Shown: one piece after another, positions 4,024 to 47,733 of the stretch
Layout: each line of letters starts with the position of its first letter
Position numbering within the stretch: position 1 is the first letter of the stretch
Assembly (NCBI GenBank): GCA_016748015.1
Contig: JAAOMT010000176.1
Coordinates: forward strand, 234,434-298,433
Length of the DNA: 64,000 nucleotides
Source: Geosiphon pyriformis uo1
Taxonomy: Eukaryota; Fungi; Glomeromycota
Direction: 5' to 3'
Made by a program: the position numbers and the translations under genes
The notes under the pieces: generated by a model
What the model saw: the letters and a program-made list of their open reading frames with translations, nothing else
Databases searched by the model: none
What the model was told of the DNA's origin: nothing

Positions 4024-4146
<123 letters not shown>

Positions 4147-8400: not shown

Positions 8401-10100
8401 GACACCCAAGCCTTCTTCCACAAAACAGGCACCACACCAACAGACAAACATTTATTAAACAGTGCCAACAGGCACCCCAAAACCACCTTACCACCATGTT
8501 TCCACAACTCATTAGGAACACCAGACAAACCAGCAGCCTTGCCATCAGGAAGACCACCAACAACAGAAAGTAATTCGCTCATACTGATTGCACTCATAAC
8601 ACCCGAAAAAGCATCATCCCGAACATAGTCCAAAGGCGCGTACTGACGAGCCCAAAGACCAGGAAGCACTAACTGCACAGAGTGTTTTCTTGTCTACCTC
8701 TCCATTATTCTATCCACACTGGACTTTACCTCCTCAGGCAACAAAACCAGATCATTATCAACTATCAAGTGATCCAACACAATCTTGCGAAAAGGCTTTT
8801 CCAACACACTCCTGATCATACTACTCTTATTCGAACAGAAATTATCCATGCGCTTCTCAATCGCCTTCCTAACCGAAGCTTCCTCAGCCAACCTAGACTC
8901 AAACATCTTCGATCTCCTGTAATCTCTGTGAACTAATGACAAATGCCCAACAACAACATCAGATTTAACACTCAAGCCAAACAAGTCCTTGAAAACACGA
9001 GCCTTTGTGTCATCCAAAGTCAACCATTTACTCACAAGACAATTAGCACCCAGCAAGTCACCAGAGCAAAATTTCTTGACAATCTTGGCCACCAACAATT
9101 CCAGACCAAAAAACCTAGAAAAATGTTTGTTTCTCAAACACTTGAATTCACTAAATCAAAGCCTTAAAAATGTTACATCAGCAGAATCCACCACAGCTCC
9201 CACCAAAACTGCTCACATAACATCCACATCACCACATATTTCAGCACCAGAGAACACCTCACCCAAAGACAAAAGTTTAGCTGACAAGAGATCCCTAAAC
9301 TTAGCTCATCCAATACAGTCAGCATCCTTAATTTTGAACTTCCAATGATCTCTATTCACCTGCTTGCACAAACTATTCAATTGTATATCTAAAAGCCCAC
9401 CCAAACCTACCAAAACCACAACTGCCTTGTGATTGGTGTTAAAGAAATCTGAAACAGAGACAACTTAATGACCAGCAACAGCAGAAGACAAATTACTACC
9501 AACAAAAATGTAATCAATCGTTTTCCCAACCCCTTTCGAATTGCTCCATGTATAAGAATTAGCCAAATGATGACCAACAAATGAATTGACCAAACCCAAA
9601 CTCAAACAAAATTTGAAACTGGCATTTCTACCAGATCTATTTTCATTAAAGTCTCCACTTAAGATAACAAAATTGCTGGAGTTGACCGCCTTTGCAATGA
9701 GAGAGTTAACTTCAGAAGCCTGACCAAATCTAACTTCAGAGGAGGCACCAGCATACAACCCCAAAACAGTAACCAAGAGCTTGCTCTTAAACAGGAGCCA
9801 AACAGAAATGACCTAACCAAGAATTTCCTCCACCTTAGACACATGATGGGCCAAGGAAATATTCATAATGATTGCAACCCCAGCACTCATAAAACCCTTA
9901 TCCAAGCCAGAAAAAAATACTCGCACTCCATCAAATTTGTTCTTAATCCATGATCCAGAAGAGGACCTCAACTTAGTCTCAGTAATAAAAGAAACCATAT
10001 TCCCCGAGTTCACATGCCAATGAACAACATCTGCTTGCTTCACAGGAACATTGATACCCTGAATGTTGCACGTAGTAAATTTCCAAACCAAACTACTCAT
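5415..10100 (-). pseudogene. LINE-1 ORF2: AP endonuclease - reverse transcriptase - RNase H - CCHC finger
   Basis: One frame (~1560 codons) with 6 nonsense mutations and no indel. APE motifs TCNIQG, ETKL, GDFN, IDYIF; RT motifs RPIALIE, QDMRKAYD, AFVDD; RNase H motifs DGS, AELQ, DSQAAI, WVKVKGHSGIPGNMRAD; C-terminal CLFC..HAFIC. Confidence 0.93.
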
Positions 10101-12053: not shown

Positions 12054-12536
12054 AGTTACAAAAAGGGAAATGTCTGAAGAAATAACTGGAGAAAGTTGAA
12101 GGGGAAAGAGAAAAGGAAGGCTATTTCAATGATGACTCAATGCTCTCATTGTGACCAGGGGATCAACAAAAGAAAGAGTTTTTTATTAAGCATTAATAAT
12201 AAATAATTAAATATATTAATAATTATATTAATATTTATTGATATTTTAATTTTAAAAAAATTATCTTAAAAATTAAAACTAAATTCAAAAACAATTTTAT
12301 TTAATATAATAGATTATATTAATAATATTAATAAAATTAAAACAATATATTTAAAATAAAAATAATAAAAATAATAATATTTAATATGTATTTAAATTCA
12401 ATTTTTTTTTATTAAGTTTTTAATGAGTGAAACCCAATCACTATCTAGTACAAAAAGCCAAACTAAGTAGCCTATACTAGACATGACTCATGCATTTCCT
12501 ACATGTGGCTAGTCATTCAGGCCAGACTAGGCAACA

Positions 12537-15500: not shown

Positions 15501-17074
15501 TCTCAATCATAAGATTTTGGGATCATCAAGATCCAAGTCCTCCTTCACAAAACAAGAACACTACCAACCAACAAACATGCATTCAACAATCTCAAAAAAT
15601 ATCTCAACACTTTATCACTATCATGTTTCCATAGTTTATTAGGAATGCTGAACAAGCCAGCAGCTTTACCATCAGGCAGGCTATTGACAACCAAAAGCAA
15701 CTCACCCAAACTGATAATACCTATTACACTAGAAAAAGCACAATTCTGCACATAATCCAATAGAGCATACTAACAAGCCCAGAGATCAGGCACTATCAAA
15801 GACACTGCCCATTTCCTAATCCAACCTTCCATGATCCTATTAACATTGAGCTTTATTTTTTTAGGTTCTAAAATTAATTTATCATTCACCACTAAGTGAT
15901 CCAGAACCACTTTGTGAAAAGACTAATCCAAAACACTCCTGATCATGCTACCTTTGTCAAAGCAGAAATTTTTCATGCACTTTGAGACTGTTAATCTAAT
16001 AGTAGCCTTCTCAGCCAATCTTGACTTATATATCTTAGATCTTCTGTATTCTTTACAAACCAATGATAAATGTCTAAGAACCACTTCAGACTTTCCACTC
16101 AAGCCAACCAAGTTAGCAAAAGCACAAGTCTTGATGCTATCCAAAGTTGACCATGTCTTCACGAGACAATCAACTCCAGACAAGTTACCTGAACCAAACT
16201 TTTTAACAATTTTGGCAACCAACAATTCCAAACCAAAGAACTTAGAAGAAAATTTATTCTTAGAACAATAAAACTCACTAAATCAATGTCTCAAAAATGT
16301 CTCGTCAGCTGATTTCACCACCACTCTCTCCAAAATTGCTCACATAGCATCCATATTACCATGAGTTTCAGCACCAAAAAATTCATCAGTAACCACCAAA
16401 AGCTTGGCAGAAAGGCAATCCTTAAATCCAGTCCACTTGGGGCCATCAGCATCTTTGATTTTGAACTTCCAACAATCCTTGTTAGTCTGTTTGCACAAGC
16501 TATTCAACCAAACATTTAGGAGTTCACCCAAGCCAATCAAAACCAAAACAGCATTATAATCAGTGTCAAAAAAACCAGACACAGAGCAGATCTGATGACC
16601 AGTGACAGCAAAAGAAAGATTCTCACTAATAAAAATAAAATTGATTGTTTTTTCAACTCTCTGTAAATTGTTCTATGTGAGCACTTTTACTATATGATGA
16701 TTGGTAAATGAATTAATCAAACTCAGATCCAAACAGAACTTGAAGGTTGCACTCCTTTCAGACCCATTCTTATTAAAATTTCTACTCAAAACCACAAAAG
16801 TGCTAAAATTAACAGTTTCTGCAATCACAGAGTTCACCTTCAAAGCTTGACTGAATCTGGTCTCAGAAGAGACACCAGTATACAAATCCAGAACCATGAC
16901 TGAAAGCTTGTCTTTAAAAAAAAGCTGAACCAAAATAATCCGGCCAGAAATCTCCTTGATCTTAGACACATAGTGAGCCAATGAATTGTTCATAATCACA
17001 GCAACCCCAGTGCCGAGAAAATCTTTATTCAAGCCAGATGTGAAAACATACACACCTTCAAACTTATTAGCAAT
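12537..17074 (-). pseudogene. LINE-2 ORF2, 3' part (APE C-term, RT, RNase H, zinc finger)
   Basis: Fragments 16673..17053, 16340..16582, 15923..16231, 15545..15760, 14031..14780 and 13224..13853 are collinear with LINE-1 ORF2. Confidence 0.9.
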
Positions 17075-18055
17075 TGTTACCAGACGAAATTAGAGATATT
17101 ATTTAGCATGAAATTATCTTTATAATTCTTATCATTAATTAGCATATATCATTGTTTCAAATTATCACTTATTATATTAGCAAAATGTCCGAAATTATTA
17201 TTTAATTAATAACCCAATTTGTATATAATACAAATGTAACCTAATTGTGATGATTAATCATGCAATACCCCGAACTATGTAACATTCAAAAAGTTTGCCG
17301 AAATTTGTAGAAATTTGCTGAAATAATTGATAGTTCACCGAAATATCTAATAGTTTACAGAAATAACTTGTAGTTCACTGAAATGTATCTTTAGTTCAGC
17401 GAAATTGTAGAAAATAGCAAAGTTTAAGTTCATAGAATAGTGTTATGACAAGTTGTATAAAAGAAGAGCTTCTTTTTTCGAGGAAATGTATCTTACTTTA
17501 GATTTATCCCTTAGAACTGTTCCTATATACACAAAAAGAAATAAATATCAAATAATTTAAAAAACCAAATTTTTTAATTATTGCACTTGGAAAATCCCCA
17601 AAACCCAACTAACATTTCGAAATTGATTAGCTACCAATTTCAGTAAACTGTTAGTGACTCCAGGCCTGGATAGAAAATGTTTTCTTTGATAAAATTCTAT
17701 TTCTTTTACATTTCTTTTATTTTTCTTTTATTTTTTTATTACAATCATTAGGGTAATCTACAGACAAGATTCCTGTAGAAGAGTTGACTTTCACAGCAAA
17801 GTAACTACACAATTTTTAGTGAGCTTCCAGATGAGCAATTCCTGGGAAAGAGTTGACATTTACTACAACATAACTATACAAAGTAACTGGCATGGAATTG
17901 GCCATTCCATTCATAAGCCCAGCAGTTCAAATTATAGGAGATAATTTGAAGATAAATTCAGTTACTGGAGGTTCAACCACATCCAGAAAATGTGAATTTA
18001 CAACAAACAGGCATTAACAACATTTAAGAAAAGAGACCAAAAACCTCTGGTAACA
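17075..18055 (+). repeat. 5' LTR of Gypsy-A1 (981 bp)
   Basis: Begins TGTTACCAGA and ends TCTGGTAACA (10-bp terminal inverted repeat); matches 25987-26956. Confidence 0.96.
17294..17462 (+). promoter_or_regulatory. LTR U3 array of TTC-N3-GAA palindromes followed by TATAAAA
   Basis: Units at ~17294, 17304, 17314, 17334, 17354, 17374, 17395, 17404 and 17429; TATAAAA at 17456-17462. Confidence 0.6.
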
Positions 18056-18057
18056 TT

Positions 18058-18070
18058 TGGTGCTCTCTCA
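18058..18070 (+). other. Primer binding site (TGGTGCTCTCT)
   Basis: TGG begins 2 nt after the LTR CA and is complementary to a tRNA 3' CCA end; tRNA identity not determined. Confidence 0.8.
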
Positions 18071-20699
18071 TAGAAACCACACAATAAAAACAAATTCAAA
18101 GTGGCAACCACACCAGACACAACAACTCTAGAGTATTACCAGTCAATTTACACCCATTGCAAGCAAAGATTCAACATTCCAGACGGAATTGAAGTTGTCA
18201 AGAAATCAGTATACCAATACATTGAAAACCGCATCAACAATTATCTTTTTGAAAATTACAATATCTTAGAAGTTAGAAGCAACCTTTACAATAATTTAGC
18301 ACACTATTCACAGTTGGAAACTAAAGACCTTAACAGTGAAACACTTGCCACTTACTTTCAAGAACTTAATTTTAACATTATCAAGTACTGTGAAAAAACA
18401 TATCTAGTACAGTCTCAATACTCTATTGATTTTGAATTGAAGACAAAAACAAGCAACAAAGGCAAACACAAATTGAAGCAATACTCAAAAACCACCCCAA
18501 ATACTTCAATACTACCAAAAACAACTGCCAAACACTTACAAACATCTGAACAAGGAACCAGTTCAAAACTTCCACTCACCATCACACCTTTTCCAGCTTC
18601 ACTTGCACAAGCACAAACACCTAATTCACCCTTGAATCAATTTGCGAGACCAAAAGATTTTACATTACTCAGAAGTCCTACCAGACAGCAAGAACCCCTT
18701 CAAACTAGTTCCAATCTTCTTGATTTTCTAGCTGAAAATCAAAGTGAACACTCTGAGACAGCAGCAAATGAAGAAAATGACTCTGAAATAACTGAAGAAA
18801 AATCAATAGACAATGAAAATGAAAAAGATGAAATGACAGCATACATCACAAAAATTCCTGAATTTAATGGAAAAGACATTGAGACCAGTCTCCAAGAATG
18901 GCTTGACCAAGTTACTAAAGCTGGAGATGCAAATGGATGGAATGCTGCCAGAATGTTAAGAACAATTCCCTACTTTTTCAAAAGAACAGCAGGAGAATGG
19001 TTTGAAAACTTGGCCACTCCATTCAATGATTGGGATGCTTTCAAAGCAGCCTTTTTTGAACAGTTCACTGACAATAATATCTCCATCACTCTTCAAAATC
19101 GGTTTCACAATATCAAACAAGAATCCTCCGAATCTGTTATGACTTATATTGGGAAATTCAACAAACTTCTCAGATGAATTCGCCAACTCGAAACAAACAA
19201 TTATTATTCCAATGCTCAAATCTTGGATTAATTTATTGCTGGTCTAAAAGATAAACTAATTAAAAAGGTTTGCCCACATGCCTCAGAAGATTTAAACTCT
19301 GCCATACAGCATGCAAAAAGATACGAAATGGTCATGGAAGAGGCCAATTACACAAAACTTGTAAATTTGGCAATTGGAGAAACCAGCTTAGCAGCTGAGG
19401 AAAAAATTGACCAACTCACAAAGAAGGTTGAAAACTATTTCACCAATCAACAACAACAGCAACCCCAAAAATATCAACCACCCCAAAGATGAAATCAAAA
19501 TAACTTTACACCACTTTCTAATAACCAGCCTCAGGATTGCCATTACTGTGGAATCTCTGGCCACTGGAAAAGAGATTGTAGAAAGCTACAACGAGACCAA
19601 CAAAATAGGAGTAATCAATGTTACCCTCCACCACAGCAATTTTATTATCAACCACCACCACCAGCTTACTATCCACCAAGACTCCAATACCAAAGTAACT
19701 ATTATCAGCCCATCTCACAGCCAATTCAACAGCAATACCAACAACCACTCACACAACATTATCAAATATCTGCTCAAAGACTGATTACACAAAATCAATT
19801 TACACCACAAAATCGATACCAAGTAATCAACAATAGAATCAGTTCAAACAACCAATTGGTTCCCTGAAATCCCACTCAACCAAGACCCAACCATTATCAC
19901 ACTCAACCCAGTTATTTAACAATGCCAGAAGAACAGGATTTTCACCATACTGCACCCTTGGAAGATAGAGCTACAGCACAACAACAAAATCTCTCTCATA
20001 ACCACACCACTATTCCACCAGCCAGAATTGCTGAAAATGCCAATCTTTCTGATATATTCCCTTTCAAATTTGAAGCAAATGAATCACCATTCTTGCTTAG
20101 CAGTGCAGCAGCTAATGAGCAAAAAGCCATCACTACAATGTACACAGAAGCTGAAGCAGAAGGAAAGCCAGTTCGCTTGATCCTAGACAATGGATCCACC
20201 GGAAGCATCATTACCTACCAGTTGATGCAACAGTTAAAAAGAAATGTTGACCGACCAGCTCAGACAGTAATCATTACTGCTGATGGCATGAAAAAGACCC
20301 CAGTAGGAGAAATTGACAATTTTTCGTTCACTCTTGATGGAATCACCATTCCAGTCAAAGTTCTTGTAATAGATGCTCCTCAGTATTAAGCCCTTGTCGG
20401 AAACAATTGGCTCCAAAAAGCCAATGCGAAATTAGACTGGGAAACTCAAGAACTACAAATCTCTTACCAAGGACAACATGTCTGAGTACCTGCCACTTGT
20501 AATACATTCAACAAACACTCCAAAAAAGCCCCGGCTTTTGAATTCGAACCAGAAGAAGAAAAACCAATAATTGAAACATTCATGGCTCTTGAATCAACGT
20601 CTAATTGGGCTGATAAAACTGAACAAAAACATTTTACCTCACACTCTGAACCCAAAACCTCTGGATGGAATATCCCTTACTCAAAGCCTGAACCAAAGA

Positions 20700-21330
20700 A
20701 ACAATGCCCCTACATTCTCCTTAAATGTAAGGACTGCCACAAGAAACTATTGTCAATAAAAGCCTGCATTTCACCTGAAGAAAAATATAAAAATCATACT
20801 TGTTATTACTGCAAGGCTTGCCACAGAGAATGATAGGGCCATCTAATAAAAAAAAGTGGAAAATGGGACAACACTCCTTGTTTAACTTGTGGAGAGATGC
20901 TACCAGAAGAATGCAATTGGATTGATGTAGCAATAAGAGGAGGAGTCTGTGATCAAACCTGCCAATATGTTTTATCAATTTTAGAAAAAGTCAAAGGAGG
21001 AACACCCTTTGATGCAGCATACAACAGTGTTCTCAACAAACTGTACCATTATTCTTATGATGCCAAAATGATTTTCGACCTAGCAATGGCTTTAATCAAT
21101 GGAGCCACTCAAGAAAATGTTCGTCAAATGAAAGAATCAGAATACATTGCATACACCTTTGAAATTGCTGGATACAACTACAAAGATGAAATAGAAATAT
21201 ATTACCAAATTGCCAGTCACACTTATCCGACCAAAGAAGCTCAAGCTCAATGGCTAGAGCAAATGAATGTTAAATTGTGTGAAGAATGCATAATGCCCTG
21301 TGATGAGCAATGGTGCCCTGAATGCTATGC
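20700..21330 (+). other. Multi-CxxC cysteine-rich domain between protease and dUTPase
   Basis: CKDC, CKAC, CLTC, CDQTC, CEEC and CPEC; homologous remnants in Gypsy-A2 (~36370-37000) and Gypsy-B1 (~51640-52350). Confidence 0.8.
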
Positions 21331-21479
21331 TCTTAGCATTCTCCTGCCCAGTGAAAATGATGAAAACAAAATTGAATTTGAAGAACCTGAAGCAACAGAA
21401 GAAATTGAAACAACACCCATTTATCTTATTGAAAGTCAGCCTGTCTTACAACTCAAATACTTCAACAACAACAGACAAG

Positions 21480-21880
21480 GAATAAAACCTGAGAAAACAC
21501 ATAAAATTGATGCTGAATATGACCTAAGATATCCAGACAAGGATACTCTTGTTCTCAAACCCAAATCTCTCACAAAAATCAACCTCAAAATTGCACTTGA
21601 AATCCCACCAGGAGCAATGATTCAAATTGCCTCCCAGTCCTCTCTGGTAAGCAAAGAAATTAATGTCAGAGGAGAAATAATCAATGCTGGATATACGGGA
21701 GACATTATAGTGATGCTTCAAAATAAAACTGACAAATTATTCAAGATCGAACATGCTGAAAAAATTGCCCAAGCTATTTACCTATCCCTAATCAACATTT
21801 TGGGTTTGCAACTAGTTAATTAAAGAGAACAATTAGGAAAAAGTGATAGAGGAACCCAAAATTTTGGTTCAACTGGATGA
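21480..21880 (+). pseudogene. dUTPase domain within the polyprotein
   Basis: All five trimeric dUTPase motifs recognisable: DAEYDL, IASQSSL, GEIINAGYTGDI, IAQAI, RGTQNFGSTG. Confidence 0.9.
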
Positions 21881-23769
21881 TTCACAGTTCCAGTTAATAT
21901 AGCTCTTAACACACAGAATGAATTCCACCAGATTCTCAGACTTCTACAACCAATTACCATCTTATTCTTTGAAGAACATCCAGAAATCTACACCTGCCCA
22001 AAGCCAACAACCACACAACAAATTTTTGAGTCCAATGAACAAGTCTGCTTGAAACATAATATTTTGATCCCAAATATTTATATTCCAGAAGGAACAAAGA
22101 AAGTCTAAGTTACTTTTTACAATCCCAACAATTACCCCATAGTTCTATTAAATAACTTAGAAATTAGAGTCATTCACAGTAACATCTTTTAACAAGAACT
22201 ACCCCAGACAGTTCTCAATTTCTCAGAAATCATTGAACATTCACTACCAAAAATCAACCCAAACCTTAGCTCTAAAAACTACCATGTTGTCATGGAAAAA
22301 CTATCTCAAATCAACATGGGACAACTTGAACCACAACAACAAAGCCAGCTCAAAGAGCTAATTACAGAATTTGCCAATATCTTTGCTAAAAACAACAATG
22401 ACTTAGGAAGAACCAATTTGGTCCAACACCAAATTTATACAGGAGATGCCAAACTAAGAAGACAACAGGCATATCAAGTTGCTCTAGAAAGCCACCAATT
22501 CATCCAAGAAGAAGTACAACGAATGCTTAACAACAGGCTCATCCAATCCTCTATGAGTCCTTGGACTTTACCTATAGTGCTAGTTAAAAAAAAATGGAAA
22601 GATATGATTTTGTGTTGACTATCGACAACTTAACAGTATTACAATTGAAGATGCCTACCCCCTTCCCCGAATTAATGACATGTTAGATGCCCTTGGAAAA
22701 TCCAAATACTTTTCAACACTAGATTTAGAAAGCGGTTACTGGCAAGTTGCTATGGATCCCAAAGATTGCCCCAAAACAGCATTCACCATCCAAGACAGAA
22801 ATTATGAGTTCAATATAATGCCTTTCGGATTATGCAATACACCAGCAATATTTCAGAGATTAATGAATGTTGTGTACTAAGAACTTCTTTAGAAGTCAGT
22901 AGTCATTTATCTTGATGATACTGATGTTTATTCTCTATCGTTCAAATTACACTTAAAACATCTGCAAGAAGTTTTTCAACGATTATGAAAAGCAGGACTA
23001 AAACTCAACATCAAAAAATGCTACTTTGGAAAAACAAGCTTGGCCTTCCTTGATCATATTGTTAGTAAAAACGGAATCAAACCAGACCCTGGAAAAATCA
23101 GCGCTGTCAAAAACTTCAAAACTCCTCAAAACACTACAGAACTAAAAAGATTCATAGGATTAGCCTCCTACTATCAGAAGTTTATTAAAAGATTTTCAGA
23201 AATTGCAAAATCTCTCAACCAGCTTACCACCAAAAACGTCAAATACGAATGGACTGCTGAATGCCAAAATGCATTTGAAATCCTCAAAGAAAAACTAATG
23301 ACAGCTCCAATTCTCACTTACCCAGATTTCAGCAACCAATTCTGATTAGCAACAGATGCCTCTTATACTGCCTTTAGTGCTATCTTATCACAACTGGATG
23401 ACAATGGAAATGAGCGAGTAATCACCTATGCTAGCAGAACATTAAAACCAGCTGAAAAAAATTATCCTGCCACTGAATTAGAAACAACAGCTGTAATTTG
23501 GGCCCTACATTATTTCAATCTTTATCTCTGGCCAAAGAAATTCGATATTATTACTAATAATATTGGACTCAAATGGCTTCAAAACAAAAATACTCAGCTG
23601 AATGCAAAACAAATCCGATGGACAGAATTTCTAGCAAACTATTGATACATAGTATATTACAAATCAGAAAAACTCCACACCAATATTGACTGTCTCTCCA
23701 GAATGAGACAAAATTAGAAAACACAAAAAACCAACACTCAACTTAACCAACCAAAACAGCCAACAAACA

Positions 23770-25155
23770 ATGAATTCGGAAAACTACAACAATCTCAAAC
23801 AATATTTGGAAACATTAACAATCCCAACAAATTGGTCTCTAAATAAAAAACATTGACTACAACAACAAGCCAAACAATATTTTCTACACAACAACATTAT
23901 TTATCATCGAAATTTTAAAAACCCAGACAAATCACTCAGATTAATACAAAAACAAGAAAAAGAGACTATATTATATAACATGCACTCAGATTCTTCATCA
24001 GCACACTTTGGAAAAAACAGCACCACCCAAAGAACACTAGAATACTACTTTTGGCCTCGAATGAAAAAAGACATTCACGAATATGTCAAATCTTGTGATA
24101 GTTGTCAAAAAAGAGAAAGAACACACCCTACTGAACCATTAAATTCAATCAAAGTTGGACAACCCTTTGACTGAGTTGGTATCAATTTAGTCAGACCACT
24201 ATCTATCACCACTCAAGAAAACCATTATATTGCAGTAGCTGTAGATTATCTTACTAAATGGCCTGAAGCCAGAGCCATTCAATGAGCAGATGCAAAATCA
24301 GTGGCAAATTTCATCTATGAAGACATTATATGTAGACATGGATGTCCAATTGAACTTTTATCTGATCAGGGGACACACTTTGTGAACAACCTGATACAAA
24401 AAATTTGTGAACGATTCAATGTCAAAAGACCTCTGTCTTTGTCCTACCATCCACAAACAAACAGACTTGTGGAATGTTTTAACAGAACATTGTGTGAGTC
24501 ATTAGCCAAAGTTTCAACTGATTTTGAGCAAGAATGGGATATCTTTATTCCATCAGTATTACTAGCATACAGAATACTAAAACAAGATACCACAAAACAC
24601 ACACCATTTGATTTAACTTATGGAAGAACAGCAATATTACCAATTAGTTTCACAGTAGAAACATACCCAGCACAACCAATCAATGAAAACAATTTCCAGA
24701 AAATGCTTCAACAAAGAGCCTACACACTTCTCAGCACATTGAAAAGAAAACAACGAATAGCAGCCACCCATATTAAACACTCCCAAACTCAACAAAAAGA
24801 ATGGCATGACAACAAATTGCCTTCAGTTACCAATGATTTTAAAGTTGGAAACAAAATTCTCCTACACAGAACTAAAGCTGAAAAACAATGGAGTGGAAAA
24901 TTTGAAAATAAATGGGATGGACCATTCTTTATCTATGAAATACTAGGCAATAGATCATACAAGTTAAGACTTGATAACAAAATGCTAGCAAAAGTTGCAC
25001 ATGGAGATTATTTAAAATACTATCATTCCAGAAACAATTCTGAACCATTAATTCCACAAATTGGTACACATTCCCCTTTAGTCAATCCCAAAGATATTCC
25101 CTGAAACTTAGAACCAATAATTGTCATTGAACAACCTTTCAACTTGAACACTTAA
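23770..25155 (+). pseudogene. Gypsy-A1 integrase, separate ORF with its own ATG
   Basis: ATG at 23770 in a different frame from RNase H. HHCC finger (MHS..AHFG..CDSC), DDE core (LLSDQGTHF..VE.FNRTL), GPY/F motif (KWDGPF); ends NLEPIIVI..TAA. Confidence 0.92.
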
Positions 25156-25340
25156 TTTAATATTACTAGTTATTCCCTTATAATTTAAAAATAATTTCAC
25201 AAAAACAAAACAAAACAAAACACTAAAAGACAAAAATAACATAAAAATCCACATACCAAAAATAATCTCAATCTATTTTTTTTACTCAAATTTTTATAAT
25301 AACTATCCCTCAAAATATTCAACAAATATCTCAAAAATTA

Positions 25341-26018
25341 ATGCTAGCTTTAAAAACAATACCCAAATTATCTATTACTATTACAGGAAAACATATTAAT
25401 TATACCCAAACAGAAATAGTTGCCAATTTAGCCCCAAATTCACGAAATTATCACCTCTACAAAAAGAACACAAGAAGTTACTCTGGAATTCATCTACCAG
25501 AACTCTTGAAGCTTGCTTTAAGAGAAAATTTAATGTTCATTTCTATTAGTATTCCACCAAATGCTACTATTCAACAAAAAATTCAACTGTGTCTTAATGA
25601 AGAAAACCATGACTATACTCCAATATATAGATATTTCTACATTGGAAAAACACTTCATGAACAAAAATGGGAGCTTACAGCAGCAAACTTTACAAAAGAA
25701 ACTATTCAAAAACAACTTCACAATGAATTCAAAACAACAGCTGGACCTACAAACAGTCACTATAAACTAAGAGCTGCTCTTAAACTTTATAACCTATTCC
25801 ACACCTGTAAAAACGTCCTACAAAACCCAATTTTACAACCTTTGAAGATTCAATACATTGAAAAGCTCACAAAACTGAAATTTCAACAATTTTCAGACCA
25901 AATTTCTTTAATAATTTTGGATTATTATCTGGAAATTACAGACAGTACTTGGACTTCGATGAAGCTCAGTCTTGAGGAGGAGATTATGTTACCAGACAAA
26001 ATTAGAAATATTATTTAG
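25341..26018 (+). CDS. Gypsy-A1 ORF3, 225-aa accessory protein of unknown function (env position, not env-like)
   Basis: Intact ATG-stop ORF between integrase and 3' LTR, overlapping the PPT and LTR start; homologues at the same position in three other elements here. Confidence 0.8.
   Translation: MLALKTIPKLSITITGKHINYTQTEIVANLAPNSRNYHLYKKNTRSYSGIHLPELLKLALRENLMFISISIPPNATIQQKIQLCLNEENHDYTPIYRYFYIGKTLHEQKWELTAANFTKETIQKQLHNEFKTTAGPTNSHYKLRAALKLYNLFHTCKNVLQNPILQPLKIQYIEKLTKLKFQQFSDQISLIILDYYLEITDSTWTSMKLSLEEEIMLPDKIRNII
25974..25983 (+). other. Polypurine tract GAGGAGGAGA
   Basis: Ends 3 nt before the TG of the 3' LTR. Confidence 0.8.
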
Positions 26019-26956
26019 CATGAAATTATCTTTATAATTCCCATCATTAATTAGTATATATCATCGTTTTAAATTATCACTTATTACATTAGCAAAATGT
26101 CCAAAATTATCATTTAATTAATAACTCAATTTGTATATAACACAAATGTAACCTAATTGCAATAATTAATCATGCAATACCCCGAATTATGTAACATTCA
26201 AAAAGTTCACCGAAATTTGTAGAAATTTGCTGAAATAATTGATAGTTTACCGAAATATCTAATAGTTCACAGAAATAACTTGTAGTTTGCTGAAATGTAT
26301 CTTTAGTTCAGCGAAATTGTAGAAAATAGCAAAGTTCAAATTCATAGAATAGTGTTATGACAAGTTGTATAAAAGAAAAGCTTCTCTTTTCAAGGAAATG
26401 TATTTTACTTTAGATTTATCTCTTAGAACTGTTCCTATATACACAAAAAGAAATAAATATTAAATAATTCGAAAAACCAAATTTTTTAATTATTGCACTT
26501 GAAAAATCCCCAAAACCCAACTAACATTTCGAAATTGATTAGCTACCAATTTCAGTAAACTGTTAGTGACTTCAGGCCTGGATAGAAAATGTTTTCCTTG
26601 ATAAAATTCTATTTCTTTTACATTTCTTTTATTTTTCTTTTCTTTTCTTATTACAATCATTAGGGTAGCCTACAGACAAAATTCTTGTAAAAAAGTTGAC
26701 TTTCACAGCAAAATAACTACACATTTTTAGTGAGCTTTTAGATGAGCAATTCCTGGGAAAGAGTTGACATTTACTACAATGTAACTACATAAAGTAACTG
26801 GCTATTCTACTTATAAGCCCAGCAAGTTCAAATTATAGAAGATAATTTGAAGATAAATTCAGTTACTGGAGGTTCAACCACATTCAGAAAATGTGAATTT
26901 ACAACAAACAGGCATCAACAACATTTAGGAAAAGAGACCAAAAACCTCCAATAACA
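25987..26956 (+). repeat. 3' LTR of Gypsy-A1 (970 bp)
   Basis: Matches the 5' LTR apart from transitions and an ~11-bp deletion between short TGGC repeats (~26800). Confidence 0.96.
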
Positions 26957-27113
26957 CAATCCAAGGCTTGATACTGAACCTTAATTTAGTTTCCATAATA
27001 AAAGATACTATATTACCAGAATTTACATGCCAATACACAATGTCTACTTGTTTTGCAGAAACATTGATACTGTGAACATTACACACAGCAAACTTTTATG
27101 TCAAACCACTCAT
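26957..27113 (-). pseudogene. LINE-2 ORF2 N-terminus (APE start)
   Basis: MSGLT*KFAVCNVHS..; removing Gypsy-A1 and one CAAT restores KPWIANKFEG. Confidence 0.88.
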
Positions 27114-28971
27114 TGAAACAAAAAAAAACATCAGAAAATCCAAGCTAGCATACAACTGATTTAACTTTACCAAAACTAAATTTACAGAGACCTTAAGAGT
27201 TACAAATTTTGACTCCAAACTGCCCATCTTAACTGTTAGAACTTTTGAACTAGTAGGACCCAAAGCTAAAACATTAGAAACAGCATGAGATGGAGATGAA
27301 AAGGCTAATTCAGAACTATCCAAAACCATGTCTTGGCCCAAATCCAAACTGACAGTCATTGGAACAGCTGAAACATTAGAATAAGAAAGGAGAGCCAGGG
27401 GCACCAATTCCACACCACTTAATTTTTGCACAATACCAGAAACTTGATTTACTAAGAGCTCCAGAGAACATTCCAAAGAGGCCAATTGATCATTCAAAGC
27501 TGAATTATGAGCCAAAACAAGAAGAAGATCACCACCCAAACCAGAGATATTAATGGGGAGAACCAAAACCAAAACCAGAACCAGAACCAAGAGAAGAGCC
27601 ATCTAAGGCCAATTTGAGTAAGACTATCTGAGCCCAAGACTTGTTTCCAAAGGCAGCAGGACAGGAAATTGAAACACACTTTTTAGCATATAATTTAGCA
27701 AGTTGAAAGTGAGTATCTTCCAAGACAACTCTTTTATAAGATCTTTGGGAAAATGGAACTAACACATTTAAGGAGTCACACTTAAGAGCAGAATGTCCAA
27801 AACTACCACACCTTTCACAACAAACCAGATCTATCTTAGCTTATGAAAGTCTAACACCACCAAAAATTGGCTTCATGTGAAATATAGATTCCAAGTCTTT
27901 ATCTGAATTAAAACCAACCACAGCACAGCAAATCCAGTTGTCAGTAACAAGAGACCAATTAATAACACATGTTTTTCTATCAGCCTTTTCTAACAAAATT
28001 TCTAAATCATGAGCTGTTGTTCCTATAGGCAGAGTAAACAAAAACACCCTAAAGTGATCCCTAAACATTTAAGTATTCCAATCTCCCACAGTCATAGCCA
28101 TACACACTAAGTCCTTTCCAATAAGGAATGACTATCTTGATGCAAGATGCTCTGTCTGCTCCAATTTGGCAAATTCTACTATTGCTTTCTGCCACATCCC
28201 AATTAGCTGAATCTTGATCAACTTAATATCACCAAATTCAGATACTGTGACAACGATCATCTCTTTTAGCATATTTATGAGAATTTCTTTGATTACTATA
28301 ACCTAATTTAAATAAATTCCTTGTTTCTTGAAATTGTTGTTTATGATAATCCCCTTCTCTCTGGTCAATAATATAGCCTTAATCAGGCTCTCCTCAAAAG
28401 TAAATGTCAATTAGATAATCTCTTCAAATTTTAAGAGGGTAGTGGCCCTCCCAAAACCATTGATTGTTAAAAAAAAATTTTTGATGAGTTGGGTTTTTGC
28501 CGTCATTAATTTTTTTTTCACAGCTGAGAGATTAATGTCTAAAGCGAAAGATTTCCTAACTGAGACCTTCACCTGAGTCTTAATGATTTTGAAGTCGACC
28601 CACTTTTTATCTAGAAATATTAAGAGGCGAGAGAGAAAAGATACTTCTATATTATCATCCATATCAAAGTTAGGAGAACCAAGTGGAAAACCAAAAACAG
28701 CACTAGTATTAACACACTTTACTTTAGAAGTGTTGGCAGCCAAATTCAGAAGAGATCTAACATTGATGCCAGTTATATTAGTACCTTTTTCATTATTAGA
28801 CAGACTATCCACATTAGAAAATACATTGTCACCAAGCTCAAACTTGTTCAAAGAGATATTTTTTTTGTCACCAGAGTATTTAATATTTCCAAGCACAACT
28901 TTCTTCTTCTGCAAAAAGGAGCCATCTACAGAATCATGAAAAGCACCCTTTGGTGCCTTCTTCTTAAACAT
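27110..28971 (-). pseudogene. LINE-2 ORF1
   Basis: Fragments 28411..29001, 27841..28068, 27550..27765 and 27096..27602 are homologous to LINE-1 ORF1 (KSFALDINL, LFTLPIGTTAHDL, CCHC at ~27780-27820). Confidence 0.85.
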
Positions 28972-29129
28972 ATTGTTACTAGAAGCAGCCTCCAAGTTCA
29001 CAAAAAAAGGTTATTAGAAAGAGAAATTGTGAAATACTAACAAGGAAAAAATAAAAAAAACTTCTTCAGAAAAGTGCTTTTTGAGGATTTGTAGATGTAA
29101 AAGAGAAAGAAGTTTTTTAAATTCGATTA

Positions 29130-30785: not shown

Positions 30786-31704
30786 TATTATAAGTCTTTT
30801 TTTTAAATGTGATTAATATTTGTTTACTGTTAATTTATGTTTTTTGAAAGCAGTTAAACCTCTAATAACTGAATTTATCTTCAAATTATTTTTTATAATT
30901 TAAACTGCTGGGGTTATAAGTAAAATAGCCAATTTTATGCTAGTTATTTTATGTAATTATTTTGTAGTAAAAGTCAACTCTTTCTCAAAAATTTTTCATC
31001 TAAAAGTTCACTAAAAATATATAGTTATTTTGTGGTAAAAGTTAACTTTTTTATTAGAATCTCATCTGTAGATTATCTTAATAATTATATTAAGAAAGAA
31101 AAAGAAATAAAAAAAATGTAAAAAAATTGAAATTTTATTAAGAAAATTATTTTCTATTCAGGCTTAAAGTCACTAATAAATTATTAAAATTAATAGCTAA
31201 TTAATTTTAAAATATTAATTGAATTTTGGAAAATATTAAGTATAATTATTTTAAAAATTGGTTTTTGAAATATATTTTTATTTTGAATTGTATTAATAAA
31301 AATAAATTTAAAGTAAGATATATTTTTTCACAAAGAAAAGCTCTTTTTTTATATAACTTATTATAGTACTAATTTATAAACTTAAACTTTTTTCTTTGCT
31401 ATAATTTTAACAAACTAAAAATATATTTCAGTAAATTACAAGTTATTTCGATAAATTATTAACTATTTTGGTGAATTATCTATTATTTTGGCAAATTTTT
31501 GAATATTACATAGTTTGAAGTATTGTGTAATTTAATCACTCTAATTTTTATTATACAAATTGGGTTATTAATTAAATAGTAATTTTTAATAATTTTAATT
31601 AACTAATAAGTAATAATTTAAATAATGATAATCTATGTTAATTAATAATAAAAATTATAAAAATAATTTTATGTTAATTATTGGCTAAAATTCTATTGGT
31701 AACA
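30786..31704 (-). repeat. 3' LTR of Gypsy-A2
   Basis: Reverse complement aligns with the A1 LTR and begins TGTTACCA at 31704; left end degenerate. Confidence 0.85.
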
Positions 31705-34700
31705 TAATTTTTTCCTTAAAATTAAGCTCTGTCAAAGTCCAAGTACTACCTGTAATATTGAGATAGTAGTCCAAAATAATTAAAGTAATTTGGTCTAAAA
31801 ATTGTTAAAATTTTAGTTCTGTGAGTTTGTCAATATATTAAATCTTTATTGGTTAAAGTATTGAATTTTGTAGGATGTTTTCACAAGTATTAAATAGGGT
31901 ATAAAGTCTAAAAACTGTTTTAAGCTTGTAACAAATATTTGTTGATCCAGCTACTGTTTTGAAATTGTTGTAAATTTGTTTTTGTATAGCTTCAGGAGTG
32001 ATATTGGTTGTTTCAAGTTCTAGTTTTCGTTCATAAAATGTTTTTCCAATATAAAAATATCTAAAAATAAGAGTATATTCATGTTTTATTTATTATGACA
32101 CAGTTAAAGCTTTTGTTGAGTTGTGGTATTTGGTAAAATATCAATAGAAGCAAATAAAAAATTTTTTTTTAAAGTTTGCTTTAAAAGTTTTGGTAATTGA
32201 ATTCCAAAATAACTTTTTGTATTTTTTTTATAAGAATGATAATTCTAAGAATTGTTTACTACTGGTGTTATAGTTTTTTTTTGAGTATAATTAATTTAAC
32301 TTTCATTAATTATTATGGATAGATTAGAAAGTGTTTTCAAAATTAATATTAATTTTTGGAATATTTGTTAAATATTTCGAAGAATAATTATAATAAAAAT
32401 AAGTAAATTAAGAGTGAAATTTGAAAAATAAGAAATATTTTTGGATAAAGTTTTTTTATATTTTTGGTTATGAATTTTTTTTGTAATTATTTACTATTTT
32501 TGTTTTCATATTTATATATTATTATTAAAAAATATATTATAATAACATTAAATTAAATGTTCAGATTTGGTTATTGTTTTATAATAATTATTGATTCTAA
32601 ATTTCAGAAAATATTTTCAGAATTAATTAAAGAGAAATGTATACTAATTTGTAAAATTAATGATTCAGAATTGTTTTTGAAATAATAATGTTTCAATCAA
32701 TTTTCATATACAACTTTTGTTAGAACTTTGTTATTAAGTCTTAATTTGTATAATTTATTATTTAAAATTTCATAAATATAAAATAGTTTATTTCATTTAT
32801 GTTTAAATTTTTTACTTTATTGTTTTTCAGTCTTAGTTCTATATAAAAAAACTTTGTTTTTAACTTTAAATTTGTTGATAACTAATAATAAATTGTTATT
32901 ATGCTATTTTTTTTGTTAAGCTTAAAAGTGTTTAATATGAATAACTGCAATTTGTTATTTTTTTTCTAAAATGCTTAAAAAGATATAAACTTTTTATTGA
33001 AATATTTCTTAAAAATATTTTTTTGTAATAGATTGTATTGAATATGTTTTTACAGTAAAATTAATTAGTAGTATTGCTGTTTTTCTATAAGTAAGATCAA
33101 ATAGTATGTGTTTCATAGTATTTTGTTTTAGTGTTTTATATGTTAATAACACTAATAAAATAAAAATATTTCAATTCTGTTTAAAATTAGTTAAGACTTT
33201 GGCTAATAATTCACATAATGTTCAGTTAAAATATTTTAATTATCTATTTATTTAGGAGTAATAGAGTAATGATAAGGATCTTTTAACATTGAATTGTTTA
33301 CAAATTTTTTGTATTAAGTTATTTACAAAGTGTGTTTCTTAATTAGATAAGAGTTCAATTGAACATTTATATCTACAAATAATGTCTTTATAAATAAAAT
33401 TTGCCACTGATTTTGCATTTTTTTTATTGAATAGCTCTGGTTTTGGGTCATTTGGTAAGATAATTTACTACAATTGCAATATAATAGTTTTTTTGAATAA
33501 TAATAAGTAGTAATCTAACTAAATTGATTTTTATATTGTTAAAAAGTTGTCTAACTTTGATTGGCTTTAAAAGTTTAATCAGATGAATTTCTTCTTTTTT
33601 TTGACAACTATTACATGATTCTATATATTGTTAAATGTTTTGGTACATGTATAACTAAAAATAATATTTAACTGTTTTTTGAATTGTATTATTTTTTCTT
33701 AAGTATACTAATAAAAAATCTGTGTACATATTGTATAAAATATTTTTTTTTATTTTGTTAGACTAATTTGAATAGATTTGTTGGGTTTTTGTAATTTCAA
33801 TAATAGATTTTGTTATAGTGAATAAAATATGGCTTTATTTGGTTTTGTAATTAGTGTTTTTCAATTGAAGACCAATTTTTTGGCATGTTAAAAGTTTTTA
33901 AATAGTTTTTGATGTTGTTGTAGTTTTTGGAATTCATTATTTTGTTACTAATTTGTTTATTGAGTTGTTAGATTGTTGATATAAATTTTAATATTGGCTT
34001 ATTTTGGAAAGATTATTAATGTTTATGTATAATTTTCTTGATTTGTGGTATACAATATATTTATAATTGGCTAGAAAATTAGTTTATTGGGATTGCTTTG
34101 TACTAAGTTCAAAGTTTTTTTTGTTGAGCTATTTGAGACCAATATTATTAATAATAATATCGAATTGAAATCCATTTCTGAAATATTGCTAAAAATGTTT
34201 GAAAGTTCAGATAATGGCTATTGCTTTTAATTCAGTTGAATCATATTTGAGTTTTGTTGGCTTGAGTGTTCTACTGACATATGTAATTACTTACTTATTG
34301 CCATTGTCATTTAATTATGATAAAATGATACCAAAAGCTATATGTGAAACATTAGTAACTAACTGGAATCTTTTGCTAAAGTTAGAATAAGCAAAAATTG
34401 GAACAGTAATAAGTTTTTCTTTGAGAGTATTGAATATTTGTTGTTGAGTTTGTGTTCACATCCTTATTGGTTAGATAATTGAGTGGTTTGGTAATTTCTG
34501 AAAATTTTTTGATGAATTTTTGGTAATAAAAGACTAATCCTATGAATTCTCTTAGTTTTGTAGTATTACAAAAAACTTAAAAGTTTTTAACAGCACTAAT
34601 TGTTTCTGGATTGAGTTGAACTCCATCTTTGCTAATAATATGTCAAAAGAAAATCAAACTTGTTTCTCTTAAGTGACATTTTTTAATGTTTAGTTTTAAT

Positions 34701-39820: not shown

Positions 39821-42800
39821 TATTACAAGTAATTATTTGGAATATTAAAACAAATAACAAACCTGTAACTTAGTGTTTAATAGCTGTTAATAATAGTGGT
39901 TTTTAAAGATTTTGGTTAAGTTTTTTGTATAATAGACAGAGATTTAATTAATGGTTTTTTCTGTGAATTTTTTTTTAGTATGGTAACTGGTTTATTCTAA
40001 CAGTTATGCTCTTTTAATGAGTTATTTTTAAGTTTTTTACCCTTGTTTCTGGGTCTTTTACCAGACTATCTTTGAGATTAATTACTTAATGGTTAATCTC
40101 TTAATCAATTAGTAAACCACAAAAAAAATAAAATAAAAAAATAAAATAAAAAATTAGTATTTGTCAATAGTCATAATTAAGAGTTATTGATTTAGTGTAA
40201 TTAAGTATTAGATTTTATCAACATGGAGTGTTGATAGTGTAGAATAAATTAATATTTCTTTAATCAAATAATGATAACATAGATTTGAATAATAATAAAT
40301 GTTTTATTAATATAAATATAATTTCACTTCAAGTTATAAAAAACTATTTTTTAAAGGAAGAAGTATTGTTATTCTGAACTAAATTGTCTGCCCTTCTTGT
40401 TTCTAATACTTTTACTATATATACATAATTTATATTATACAATATTTCTTAAAATCTTTCAATTCTTTTAAAAAAATCTTGGAATTCTAAAATTCTTCTT
40501 TTTACTATGCTTATTTCTAATTGGCTATTTTATCTACTTATTATAATTCCTAATTTCTATGAGTAATATTATTCTCTCTTTTTAATATTGAGTTCTGTTA
40601 AGATCTTCTAAATTTTTTAAATCTTCTTCTTGAATTAGCTCCATAATTTTTTTTTTAAGAATTACTTTTATAATTCTAGTCTGCAATTTTTCAAATTAAA
40701 TATTGATTAATTTTTCCAGTTAATTAATAATTATTGTACTTATTTTTGAGTGTAGCAGTATTTTTGGCCAGTTCTGAAATTCTATTTGTAGTTAATAAAT
40801 AACTTTTATATATGTAAATAAATTGTTTTTTTCCATAATTTGTTTAATTTGTTGTACTATAATTAGATCAAATATACTTTTGGTTTTATTTATATATAAG
40901 TTCTAAATATTTAGTTTCTGTTTTAACTGAAAATAACAAAAGTTTTTAAAAATTTGTTATGTCTATTGGTTTCAATTTTTTAAAACAAATTTTTCATTTT
41001 GTATTAATATTCTTGGAGTTTTCAATATTTTATTATTTTTATTATTATTTTATATACTGGATTTTCAAAAGTATAATATTTAAAGTATTGTTCTTTACTT
41101 TGTAATCTTTTAATTATTCTTTTGTCTTTAAATTATATTGTTTATTTGTTAATAATAACTTTAAAACTTGATTTCTGATGTTAAATAAGTTGTAAAAGTT
41201 ATTATGTAAATAAGTAAATATTGTTAATAATTTCTATTTTTATTATATTATATGTATTGGTTTTTTATATACTGTTCTGGTTAATCAATTTAACATGTTT
41301 GTTTCAATAATTATGATTGGTTCCAAATCTTGTAGAATCTTATCTGATTTAATTAGTATTTGTTGTACTTTTAATTATAAAATATTATTGGTAGATAATA
41401 AGCTATATTGTGATATAATTTTAGTTAATTACCATATACTGTTTTGGCTAAGATTTTATTGTCTTATCTTAATTTGTATGTTTTATTTCTTTAATATAAA
41501 ATAGATTATTTTATTTGAAATTAAAATTTCTACTCCATTGTTTTTCTACTTTGGTATAATATAAGAGTACTTTGTTTCTTATCCTGAATTCAATTGGTTT
41601 ATTTAGTAATTGGTTGTTATGTTATTTTTTTTTGTTTTGCTTGTAATTTTTGTATATTATCAACTGCTTTTTGTTTTTTATTTTTTAGAGTTTTTATTAA
41701 GTTATATGTTTTTTTTAGCAATGTTTTTTAAAAGTTGGTTTCTGTTATTGGTTTAATTAGATATATATTAATATCTATTTTAACTGGTATTATGACTGTT
41801 TTACTATAAATTAGTTTAAATAGTATTGCTTATATAATATCTTGCTTTATTGTTTAATAAGCAATAATACTAATAATATAAACAAATCCTATTTATTCTG
41901 GTTTTTTTGGCTTATCTTAGTTATTGCTTCACATAGTGTTCTGTTAAATTTTTCAACTAAATTATTAGTTTATGAATAATATAAAAATAATAATGGTTAT
42001 TTGATTCCAAATCTCTGATTTAATTCTGTTAATTTTTTGTTTACAAAGTGAGTTTTCTAATTTAATAATAATTTTTTTGAACATTTATGTCAATAAATCA
42101 AATCTTGATATATAAATTTGGCTACAGATTTTGTATTTGCTTTTTGAATTGCTTTTGCTTCTGGCTATTTTGTAAAATAATTTATAACTACTGCTATATA
42201 TTGGTTGCTTCTACTAATTATTGTTAATAATCTGACTAAGTTAATTCCAATTCAATTAAATAGTTGTTTTATTTTAATTGGTCTTAGTAATTTACTGGAT
42301 TTTATTCCTTTTTTTTTGACAAACATTACAACTTTGAACATATTAGATGATATCTAGATATATTAATAGCCAATAATATCTTTTTTTGGTCATTTCTATG
42401 ATTGTTTTTTTATAAAATATTCTGTAGTTAGATCTGAGTACATATTGAGCAATATTGTTTTTTTTCTGGTTCTATAATTACTTTGAGTGATTAATCTAGA
42501 TTTTTTTTGTTTTTCCAATATAGTATATTTTAGTATATAATAAAATATTTTGATTGTTGTTTTATATGGTTTTGTTCTTTTTAAAATAATTTTTTTTTGA
42601 ACTTTTAAGTATTAATATAATGTTAAAGTTGTTGATATTTTTGTGTATTTATCTTTTGTTATATTTTTAAATTGAAATGCTTTTAGATTTATTTTATTTG
42701 TAACAATTCTTCAACATTTCTGTTTTCTTTTTTCTTTTTATAGTGTACTGTATAATTAAATAATAAGAGTTCTATTTTTTATTTGACATAGTAATTATTT

Positions 42801-47106: not shown

Positions 47107-47733
47107 ATATTGAGCTCCATCAAGATCTTCTAATTCTAATTCTCTATCTTTGCATATTTCTTGAACTTTTTTTTCAAGAATTACTTGTGTTATCTTGTTC
47201 TGTAATTCTTCAAATTGAGCATTGGTTATTTTTCCTATTTGGTTAACAGTAATGAAATCCATTGCTGGATTGAATAATATTTTAAGTTGGTTTTAAAATC
47301 CAACTTGTAGTCAATAAATAGTTCGTGCTTGTGTGGTTAGATTGTTTTTTCTCACAAATTGTTCTAGTTGTTGTAATATTTCTGGGTTGAATAATCGCTT
47401 TGTCTTATCTGTATATAAGTTCTGAATATTTAAGTGTTGTTCCAAGTGAAAATAACAAAAGTTTCTTGGAAATTGTTGTGTTTACTAATTTCATGTTTCT
47501 ATTGTCAACTCTGAATATTGGGTGACTTTTGGTTGTGCTTTTATTACCAATTTCACTTTTGTGATTATTTTTCCAATAGTGTTTTTTGTTTTTCTTTGTA
47601 TTTTATCTTATGGTCTCTTTTTGGTGTTTTTGTATTTGATGGTTTGTTGATTGATTGTAATTTCTATCTCTTGTTGTTGAATCAGTTGAAAGAGTTGTTG
47701 TGTTAGTGCATAGATATCATCAGTAATTTCCAT
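47107..47733 (-). pseudogene. Gypsy-B1 ORF3 homologue
   Basis: MEITDDIY...NFCYFHLEQHL...QARTIY*L..LKILFNPAMDFITVNQIGKITNAQFEELQNKITQVILE aligns with the C-terminal half of A1 ORF3. Confidence 0.75.

What the first reader, a model, noticed from the sequence alone, without database searches (positions are those of the whole stretch)
25341..26018. Conserved non-env ORF3 of unknown function
A 225-aa ORF with no stop, although the other A1 ORFs are peppered with stops. It has no signal peptide or TM segment, so it is not an envelope protein. Its C-terminal half (YRYFYIGKTL...ALKLYNL..KNVLQNPILQPLKIQYIEKLTKLKFQQFSDQISLIILD) aligns with family B (FCYFHLEQHL...ARTIY.L..KILFNPAMDFITVNQIGKITNAQFEELQNKITQVILE). 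It is also present in A2 (31675-32349) and B2 (~40587-41215). The pattern looks helical and possibly nucleic-acid-binding (inference). This is the best candidate for a new protein family in the window.
Basis: partly seen in the sequence, partly recalled or inferred. Interest (0 to 1): 0.85.

Follow-up and report, generated by a model that had tools for sequence, protein, structure and literature searches.

The report
Orphan accessory gene in fungal retrotransposons
A group of jumping genes, likely from a soil fungus, carries after its integrase an extra, selectively conserved gene for a soluble protein that matched no catalogued family here and that may switch on the element by binding repeats in its own ends.

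Summary
The ORF is real. It lies between integrase and the 3' LTR of a Ty3/gypsy element; named relatives are all Geosiphon pyriformis hypothetical proteins.

- Being stop-free is not significant (P 0.11-0.20).
- The frame is probably 239 codons; this copy has ATA at the upstream start.
- Homology to family B covers nearly the whole protein (hhalign E 7e-6), not only the C-terminal half.

Purifying selection is shown (transversion N/S ratio 0.27, p 2e-6). At least five Geosiphon ORF3 families and four unnamed metagenome proteins share it. One metagenome contig (L084) has the same integrase-ORF3-PPT-LTR layout. There is no membrane segment, conserved cysteine or evident catalytic residue, so it is not env.

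Side finding: integrase appears to be a separate ORF, behind a conserved stop after RNase H.

Function is inferred only. The best guess (0.35) is a DNA-binding activator or anti-silencer of the family-specific LTR repeat arrays. The scan logged orphan ORF3s of this kind on other DNA (e1-7551027, e1-7507787), with no sequence match to this one.

The parts
17075..18055 (+). 5' LTR of element A1 (TG...CA); 4-bp target-site duplication CAAT at 17071-17074 and 26957-26960
17294..17405 (+). U3 array in the 5' LTR: six 11-mers of the TTC-N3-GAA type (TTT at some first half-sites), 20-21 bp apart
18058..18070 (+). primer-binding-site-like TGGTGCTC, also next to the B1 5' LTR; tRNA not identified
18074..23717 (+). 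decayed gag-protease-dUTPase-RT-RNase H frame, ending at a stop (23715-23717) that is conserved in position
   Evidence: Pfam
23718..23769 (+). 52-nt A/C-rich spacer (93% A+C) between the RNase H stop and the integrase ATG
23770..25155 (+). integrase (H2C2, rve, SH3; no chromodomain hit) as a separate ORF with its own ATG in another frame; decayed
25156..25298 (+). A/T-rich spacer before ORF3 (1% G)
25299..26018 (+). ORF3: 239-codon frame, first codon ATA in this copy, next ATG at 25341; runs over the PPT and ends 32 nt inside the 3' LTR
25974..25983 (+). polypurine tract, inside ORF3
25987..26956 (+). 3' LTR of A1; 61 substitutions against the 5' LTR, 60 of them transitions
26206..26317 (+). 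U3 array in the 3' LTR, about 50 bp upstream of a TATA-like box near 26368
31685..32391 (-). ORF3 of A2 (221/235-aa subfamily), broken by 7 stops and a frameshift; ends approximate
40585..41215 (-). ORF3 of B2, broken; C-terminal part 41025-40585, N-terminal part in another frame
47107..47733 (-). ORF3 of B1, 209 codons with 6 stops; ends just before the PPT

Best explanation
ORF3 is a selected accessory gene of a Ty3/gypsy retrotransposon clade, and it likely encodes a soluble, mostly helical protein that would bind the short repeat array in its own LTR and activate or de-silence transcription of the element. Shown: the gene, its fixed slot between integrase and PPT, its spread over at least five families, purifying selection, no membrane segment, and different repeat arrays in different families' LTRs. 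Inferred: expression from an internal start or spliced message, nuclear location, DNA binding, the LTR array as target, and activation.
For: (1) Selection. A1 versus A2 transversions: 41 of 599 non-synonymous sites against 21 of 83 synonymous sites, ratio 0.27, p 1.9e-6. Both halves agree (0.27, 0.24), gag/pol gives 0.13-0.31, and shifted frames and LTR controls give 0.9-1.9. B1 versus B2: 0.52, p 0.014. (2) Slot conserved in A, B and the metagenome locus L084. (3) Fastest-changing gene of the element. A versus B: ORF3 about 20% identical, gag 33%, PR 53%, RT 56%, IN 52%. L084 versus A1: ORF3 28%, IN 51-61%. (4) Not env and not evidently an enzyme. The 35 positions shared by A and B include no C, H, D, R or W and only two E. 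pI is 8.5-9.5 in 5 of 5 proteins computed, with a basic patch near residues 30-70. (5) Each LTR family has its own repeat motif in U3. At up to 2 mismatches, each family's probe occurs 3-7 times in its own LTRs and 0-1 times in the others. Top repeats in 4 of 5 LTRs exceed all 8 resampled nulls. (6) CpG o/e is about 0.2 and 13 of 22 stops are TGA, consistent with methylation-driven decay; TEs are mCG-methylated in Rhizophagus (PMC8647823, passages). (7) Precedents for the logic: VANC proteins with family-specific tandem targets (PMC5735166, abstract) and foamy-virus Tas in the pre-LTR slot (PMC7828637, figure legends). (8) Weak lead: DUF1016_N in 9 of 40 members, best E 0.0028, cut-off not reached, with the same register.
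Against: No binding, localisation or activity was measured. The DUF1016_N link is not significant by profile-profile comparison: probability 0.2-5.9%, and the alignments scored against block shuffles were matched by 2 of 100 and exceeded by several of 30. It was chosen after scanning 24,736 families, and family B gave no such hit among the 25 of 33 families listed. The models are poor (mean pLDDT 47.5 and 52.9), so no helix-turn-helix is demonstrated. LTR enhancer arrays are common without any element-encoded activator (own knowledge), and TTC/GAA motifs could serve host factors. The decayed A2 LTR did not beat its nulls, and the nulls numbered only 8. The protein is only mildly basic (K+R 27, D+E 19).
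Confidence: 0.35

Rival explanations
1. ORF3 is a partner of the separately translated integrase or of the particle: it would help nuclear import, target choice or RNA handling, standing in for the missing chromodomain.
For: Integrase appears to be a separate ORF directly upstream, and both genes follow G-poor, A-rich spacers. Integrase shows SH3 but no chromodomain hit. Nuclear-import roles are proposed for additional ORFs (PMC7264820, parts 1-2 of 3).
Against: ORF3 diverges far faster than integrase, which fits a changing target better than a conserved partner. No co-expression data.
Confidence: 0.25
2. ORF3 suppresses a host defence (RNAi or methylation machinery) through protein or RNA contacts, without sequence-specific DNA binding.
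For: Fast divergence with purifying selection. Gypsy elements produce small RNAs and are methylated in Rhizophagus (PMC8647823, passages).
Against: Five divergent versions coexist in one genome, which a family-neutral suppressor would not need. No known suppressor family matched at a curated cut-off.
Confidence: 0.2
3. ORF3 is an atypical spread factor (env or movement-protein substitute) that carries particles between nuclei, hyphae or partners.
For: It occupies the env slot.
Against: No membrane segment in 148 A/B proteins or in 17 family representatives. No conserved cysteine. Predicted mostly helical, whereas 30K movement proteins have a beta core (recalled). Glomeromycotan hyphae are coenocytic (own knowledge).
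Confidence: 0.07
4. ORF3 is a neutral passenger or a frame that stays open by chance.
For: Stop-freeness is within chance. Transitions alone show little constraint (0.174 versus 0.192). The last 10-15 codons overlap the PPT and LTR and differ in frame between A and B.
Against: Transversion test p 1.9e-6 with clean frame and LTR controls. Collinear homologues at 20-30% identity, and an open 230-codon frame in L084.
Confidence: 0.03

Closest known systems
Non-env ORF3s and additional ORFs of LTR retrotransposons: bdelloid Juno/Vesta GDSL and DEDDy ORF3s (PMC5408684, passages); plant aORFs such as Grande gene23 (PMC7264820, parts 1-2 of 3); fungal 'add. ORF' (PMC2864245, figure legend)
   Same: Extra ORF between pol and the 3' LTR, family-specific and conserved. 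dUTPase between protease and RT, as in rotifer and some fungal elements (PMC6431247, PMC2864245, passages).
   Different: No Pfam match to GDSL, DEDDy or any family at cut-off. Sense orientation without a membrane segment. Family A's ORF spans the PPT into U3. Integrase is a separate ORF.
Errantivirus/retrovirus env and plant env-like ORFs
   Same: Position and sense orientation.
   Different: No membrane segment, no hydrophobic leader, no conserved cysteines; about 210-240 aa.
VANC anti-silencing proteins of Arabidopsis VANDAL transposons (PMC5735166, abstract and outline)
   Same: Proposed logic only: a fast-evolving TE protein paired with family-specific tandem motifs in a methylating host.
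   Different: DNA transposons of plants. No homology seen. Binding and demethylation are shown for VANC and untested here.
Foamy-virus Tas (PMC7828637, figure legends)
   Same: Accessory gene just before the 3' LTR; soluble transactivator.
   Different: Retroviruses with env. No homology found. No internal promoter shown here.
DUF1016_N (PF17761), N-terminal domain of bacterial YhcG; helix-turn-helix reading recalled, not from a call
   Same: Weak recurring register over about 60-100 residues of the helical core.
   Different: Far below cut-off (14 bits against 32.8 for the window protein), profile-profile not significant, no nuclease domain.

Membership tests
Ty3/gypsy LTR retrotransposon | LTRs with TG...CA, TSD, PBS, PPT | tested here: met
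Ty3/gypsy LTR retrotransposon | domain order gag-PR-RT-RNase H-IN | tested here: met
   Pfam; L084
Ty3/gypsy LTR retrotransposon | integrase as part of the Pol polyprotein | tested here: not met
   Stop after RNase H in 4 of 5 copies examined (A1, A2, B2, L084; B1 lacks it in frame). Integrase ATG in 3 of 5, ATA in B1 and B2. Readthrough is not excluded for L084, where the two are in frame.
Ty3/gypsy clade (chromovirus, Ylt1, other) | RT phylogeny with reference elements | not tested
   no reference set in session; no chromodomain hit
Non-env additional ORF3 | conserved ORF between pol and 3' LTR across copies and families | tested here: met
Non-env additional ORF3 | purifying selection | tested here: met
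Non-env additional ORF3 | expressed from its own or a spliced transcript | not testable with these tools
   needs RNA reads
Env / env-like | transmembrane anchor or hydrophobic signal | tested here: not met
   hydropathy only, no dedicated predictor: 0 of 148 above 1.6; maximum 1.29 in 17 representatives
Env / env-like | conserved ectodomain cysteines | tested here: not met
   none among 35 shared positions
Env or movement protein | fold match | tested here: inconclusive
   low-confidence models; searches
DUF1016_N | Pfam gathering score | tested here: not met
   14 bits against 32.8; best member E 0.0028
DUF1016_N | remote homology by profile-profile | tested here: inconclusive
   probability up to 5.9% (no shuffle control on that alignment); 2 of 100 shuffles reach the core-domain score
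Element-encoded LTR trans-activator or anti-silencer (works like Tas or VANC) | family-specific repeat array in the element | tested here: met
Element-encoded LTR trans-activator or anti-silencer (works like Tas or VANC) | sequence-specific binding and activation or demethylation | not testable with these tools
   needs bench work

The most novel reading that the evidence does not exclude
This is an undescribed clade of three-gene fungal LTR retrotransposons (Gag-PR-dUTPase-RT-RNase H, a free-standing integrase, and ORF3) whose third gene is a self-made, family-specific LTR activator or anti-silencer co-evolving with its own repeat array. It would be a VANC- or Tas-like system in a retrotransposon, possibly derived from a bacterial helical DNA-binding domain, and could explain how LTR elements came to fill about 41% of the Geosiphon genome.
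Probability: 0.25. Interest if true: 0.8.

Novelty: new variant of a known kind. Interest (0 to 1): 0.52.

Why it matters
LTR elements cover 41.2% of the G. pyriformis genome (PMC11952901, passages), although this element shows the CpG depletion expected of a methylated host. A conserved accessory protein with family-specific LTR repeats next to it offers a directly testable answer to how such elements stay active. It would also be a candidate sequence-specific regulator. Separately, several hundred 'hypothetical' Geosiphon gene models are this transposon ORF and not host genes. A free-standing integrase would be an unusual expression strategy for a Ty3/gypsy element.

Tried and rejected
- No own genome was held, so there is no genome-wide copy count or codon-model dN/dS.
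- Family libraries gave nothing at cut-off: Pfam, PHROGs (best phrog_23683, unknown function, 12 of 36 members, E 2.8e-4), NCBIfam (FtsQ, 16 of 36 members, 15.9 bits against a cut-off of 366 for the window protein).
- PDB sequence searches: best was importin-5 at E 0.0046, not recovered with the more diverse profile; taken as helical chance.
- Fold searches: VIA best Z 4.7 (rmsd 6.4, 48 aligned) and 4.6 (rmsd 6.3, 108 aligned); Foldseek none at E<=0.001 in BFVD or PDB. The models were poor, so this does not show a new fold. The N-terminal module was barely tested.
- ESM Atlas: top hits 0.90-0.91, unnamed, recognition below threshold; later tries gave no answer.
- Homodimer prediction: no verdict; no evidence either way.
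- No RNA holder listed; no evidence on expression.
- Laying DNA contigs: 4234 contigs laid from run X1, possibly the window's own source. The second lay showed no variant row at 25301 at low depth, so the 239-aa start rests on protein relatives and on homology of the first helix.
- Pattern scans of viral and metagenome contigs with the A+B alignment, phage tblastn and a viral scan with L084 integrase: nothing.
- An intron at the RNase H-integrase junction was considered and set aside: the A1 spacer holds one G and L084's spacer no AG.
- ARAGORN: no tRNA in the window.
- Scan look-ups by sequence and by place found no look-alike.
- Nine literature searches listed no description of this ORF or of a separate integrase in these elements.

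Full report
Setting. The window is a nest of decayed retroelements. A1 (17075-26956, +) is a Ty3/gypsy LTR element with a 4-bp target-site duplication, inserted into a LINE-like element. Its LTRs differ by 61 substitutions, 60 of them transitions; CpG o/e is 0.2. Pfam finds gag, protease, dUTPase, RNase H, integrase and SH3 pieces in order; the RT frame was read directly and matches L084's RT-RNase H at 57%. The host is inferred from protein labels. Of 203 hits among 340 candidates, the 120 listed are this protein and 119 Geosiphon pyriformis hypothetical proteins, the closest at 85-88% identity.

Observation. The 225-codon frame is there. Its lack of stops is within chance: about 2 are expected, P(0) is 0.11-0.20, and gag-pol has longer open runs. 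The frame probably starts 14 codons earlier, where this copy has ATA. The 239-aa Met-started form is the commonest class of near-full-length relatives, and the extra helix aligns with family B. ORF3 runs across the PPT and stops inside U3 in family A and in L084; in family B it stops just before the PPT. The last 10-15 residues therefore reflect cis-acting DNA more than protein constraint (inference).

It is a gene. Decay after insertion is nearly all transitions, so I tested transversions between A1 and A2. The result is 41 of 599 non-synonymous sites against 21 of 83 synonymous sites: ratio 0.27, p 1.9e-6. gag/pol segments give 0.13-0.31; shifted frames and LTR give 0.9-1.9. Transitions alone give 0.174 against 0.192, so a naive dN/dS would understate the constraint. 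B1 against B2 gives 0.52, p 0.014. These are two pairwise comparisons, not a codon model.

Family. The B1 ORF found 81 hits among 141 candidates, all G. pyriformis. A and B profiles align over 183 columns (probability 84%, E 7.3e-6). A profile search of 1.84 billion representatives gave 109 hits. Of these, 14 were already known as G. pyriformis. Of the 95 new ones, 22 were under 45% identical to A/B references. I looked up 30 of the 95, including all 22: 26 are G. pyriformis and 4 are unnamed metagenome proteins; 65 were not looked up. No other named species appeared. A tree of 17 chosen proteins resolves five Geosiphon families (A-E) with 91-100% bootstrap; the deep order is unsure because of long branches. 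C, D and E are tied to elements only indirectly, for example by gene models fused to integrase pieces (P0261, P0268). P0251's contig, L084, shows RT-RNase H, integrase, a spacer of about 315 nt, an open 230-codon ORF3, PPT and LTR. Its host is unknown. The contexts of P0248, P0305 and P0311 were not seen; P0248 ends in the same PPT-encoded residues as family A.

Protein. It is predicted as an N-terminal helix and beta-hairpin, a basic low-confidence linker, and a helical core; only residues 111-150 reach pLDDT 78-90. There is no membrane segment. The positions shared by A and B are mostly hydrophobic or N/Q/T, with no C, H, D, R or W, which argues against env and against a metal enzyme. The one recurring lead is DUF1016_N (9 of 40 members). 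I tested it against 81 bacterial domains. The same register recurs, but probability is at most 5.9% and 2 of 100 shuffles reach the core score. It remains a hint. Reading DUF1016_N as a helix-turn-helix is recalled, not from a call.

Side finding. RNase H ends at a stop three or four residues after its final motif in A1, A2, B2 and L084. Integrase begins at its own ATG 52, 50 and 24 nt later in A1, A2 and L084; B1 and B2 have ATA at that place, and B1 lacks the in-frame stop. Gene model P0209 starts at the same Met. Differing spacer lengths and frames argue against a decayed fusion. So the clade seems to have three coding units, two of which need internal translation starts or subgenomic messages (inference from five copies).

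Mechanism. Each LTR family has its own U3 repeat: six TTC-N3-GAA-type 11-mers 20-21 bp apart in A, a GAATTCCAGG-type array in B, and a TTGCCCTAG-type motif plus a second repeat in L084; cross-counts are 0-1. ORF3 is the fastest-changing gene yet is constrained. A soluble, mildly basic, non-enzymatic protein that diverges alongside family-specific LTR motifs in a CpG-depleted element is what an element-encoded activator or anti-silencer would look like. I give this 0.35. Rivals: integrase or particle partner 0.25, general defence suppressor 0.2, spread factor 0.07, passenger 0.03; the remainder is unlisted roles. No step beyond the gene's reality and anatomy is shown.

Known kinds. Non-env third ORFs are described in rotifers (PMC5408684, passages), plants (PMC7264820, parts 1-2 of 3) and fungi (PMC2864245, passages). 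dUTPase between protease and RT is known (PMC6431247, passages). VANC: PMC5735166, abstract and outline. Tas: PMC7828637, passages. Host context: PMC11952901 (passages) and PMC8647823 (passages). Also seen without bearing: PMC3248453, PMC13524379 and PMC2582038 (passages) and PMC13486581 (abstract). Nine searches listed no account of this ORF or of the separate integrase. The library lacks most subscription papers, the Geosiphon genome paper (recalled) was not among the listings, and I read no supplements. Repbase, Dfam or supplementary TE libraries may already hold these elements. The scan's own notes record orphan ORF3s of this kind in other genomes, with no sequence look-alike.

Verdict. 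A real, selected accessory gene of an apparently undescribed protein family, in a known slot, within an element of unusual layout. New variant of a known kind; interest 0.52.

Noticed in passing
window 23715-23772 (A1); 33990-33937 (A2, -); about 49200-49165 (B1, -); about 42690-42652 (B2, -); L084 772-801: Integrase appears to be encoded separately: a stop right after RNase H, a short A/C-rich spacer of variable length, then an ATG (ATA in B1 and B2). Unusual for Ty3/gypsy and worth its own study.
   Followed up: partly
window 26206-26317 and 17294-17405; B1 LTRs 46230-47089 and 55390-56259; L084 3117-3713: Family-specific repeat arrays upstream of the TATA-like box; A1 also has one inverted copy at about 26549-26559.
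   Followed up: partly
window about 21480-21800 (A1) and about 35800-36170 (A2, -): dUTPase between protease and RT in family A, after a long cysteine-rich linker (about 20600-21400) that is under purifying selection (ratio 0.15) and has no assigned family. No dUTPase hit was found in B1.
   Followed up: partly
window 5189-12125 (-); 12308-17068 plus 26978-29066 (-); 56477-63200 (+): Three copies of a LINE-like element with RT and RNase H; the first keeps a 786-codon open stretch. A1 is inserted in the second.
   Followed up: no
window 30794-63200: A2, B2, B1 and the third LINE are far more AT-decayed (mostly 16-33% GC) than A1 and the first two LINEs (29-44%), with a sharp change near 29000.
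   Followed up: no
proteins: Several hundred G. pyriformis 'hypothetical protein' gene models are this transposon ORF or chimeras of it with gag, dUTPase or integrase pieces.
   Followed up: partly
window 4023-4147: Adjacent trinucleotide microsatellites (ATA, TAT, TTG) in an AT-rich stretch.
   Followed up: no
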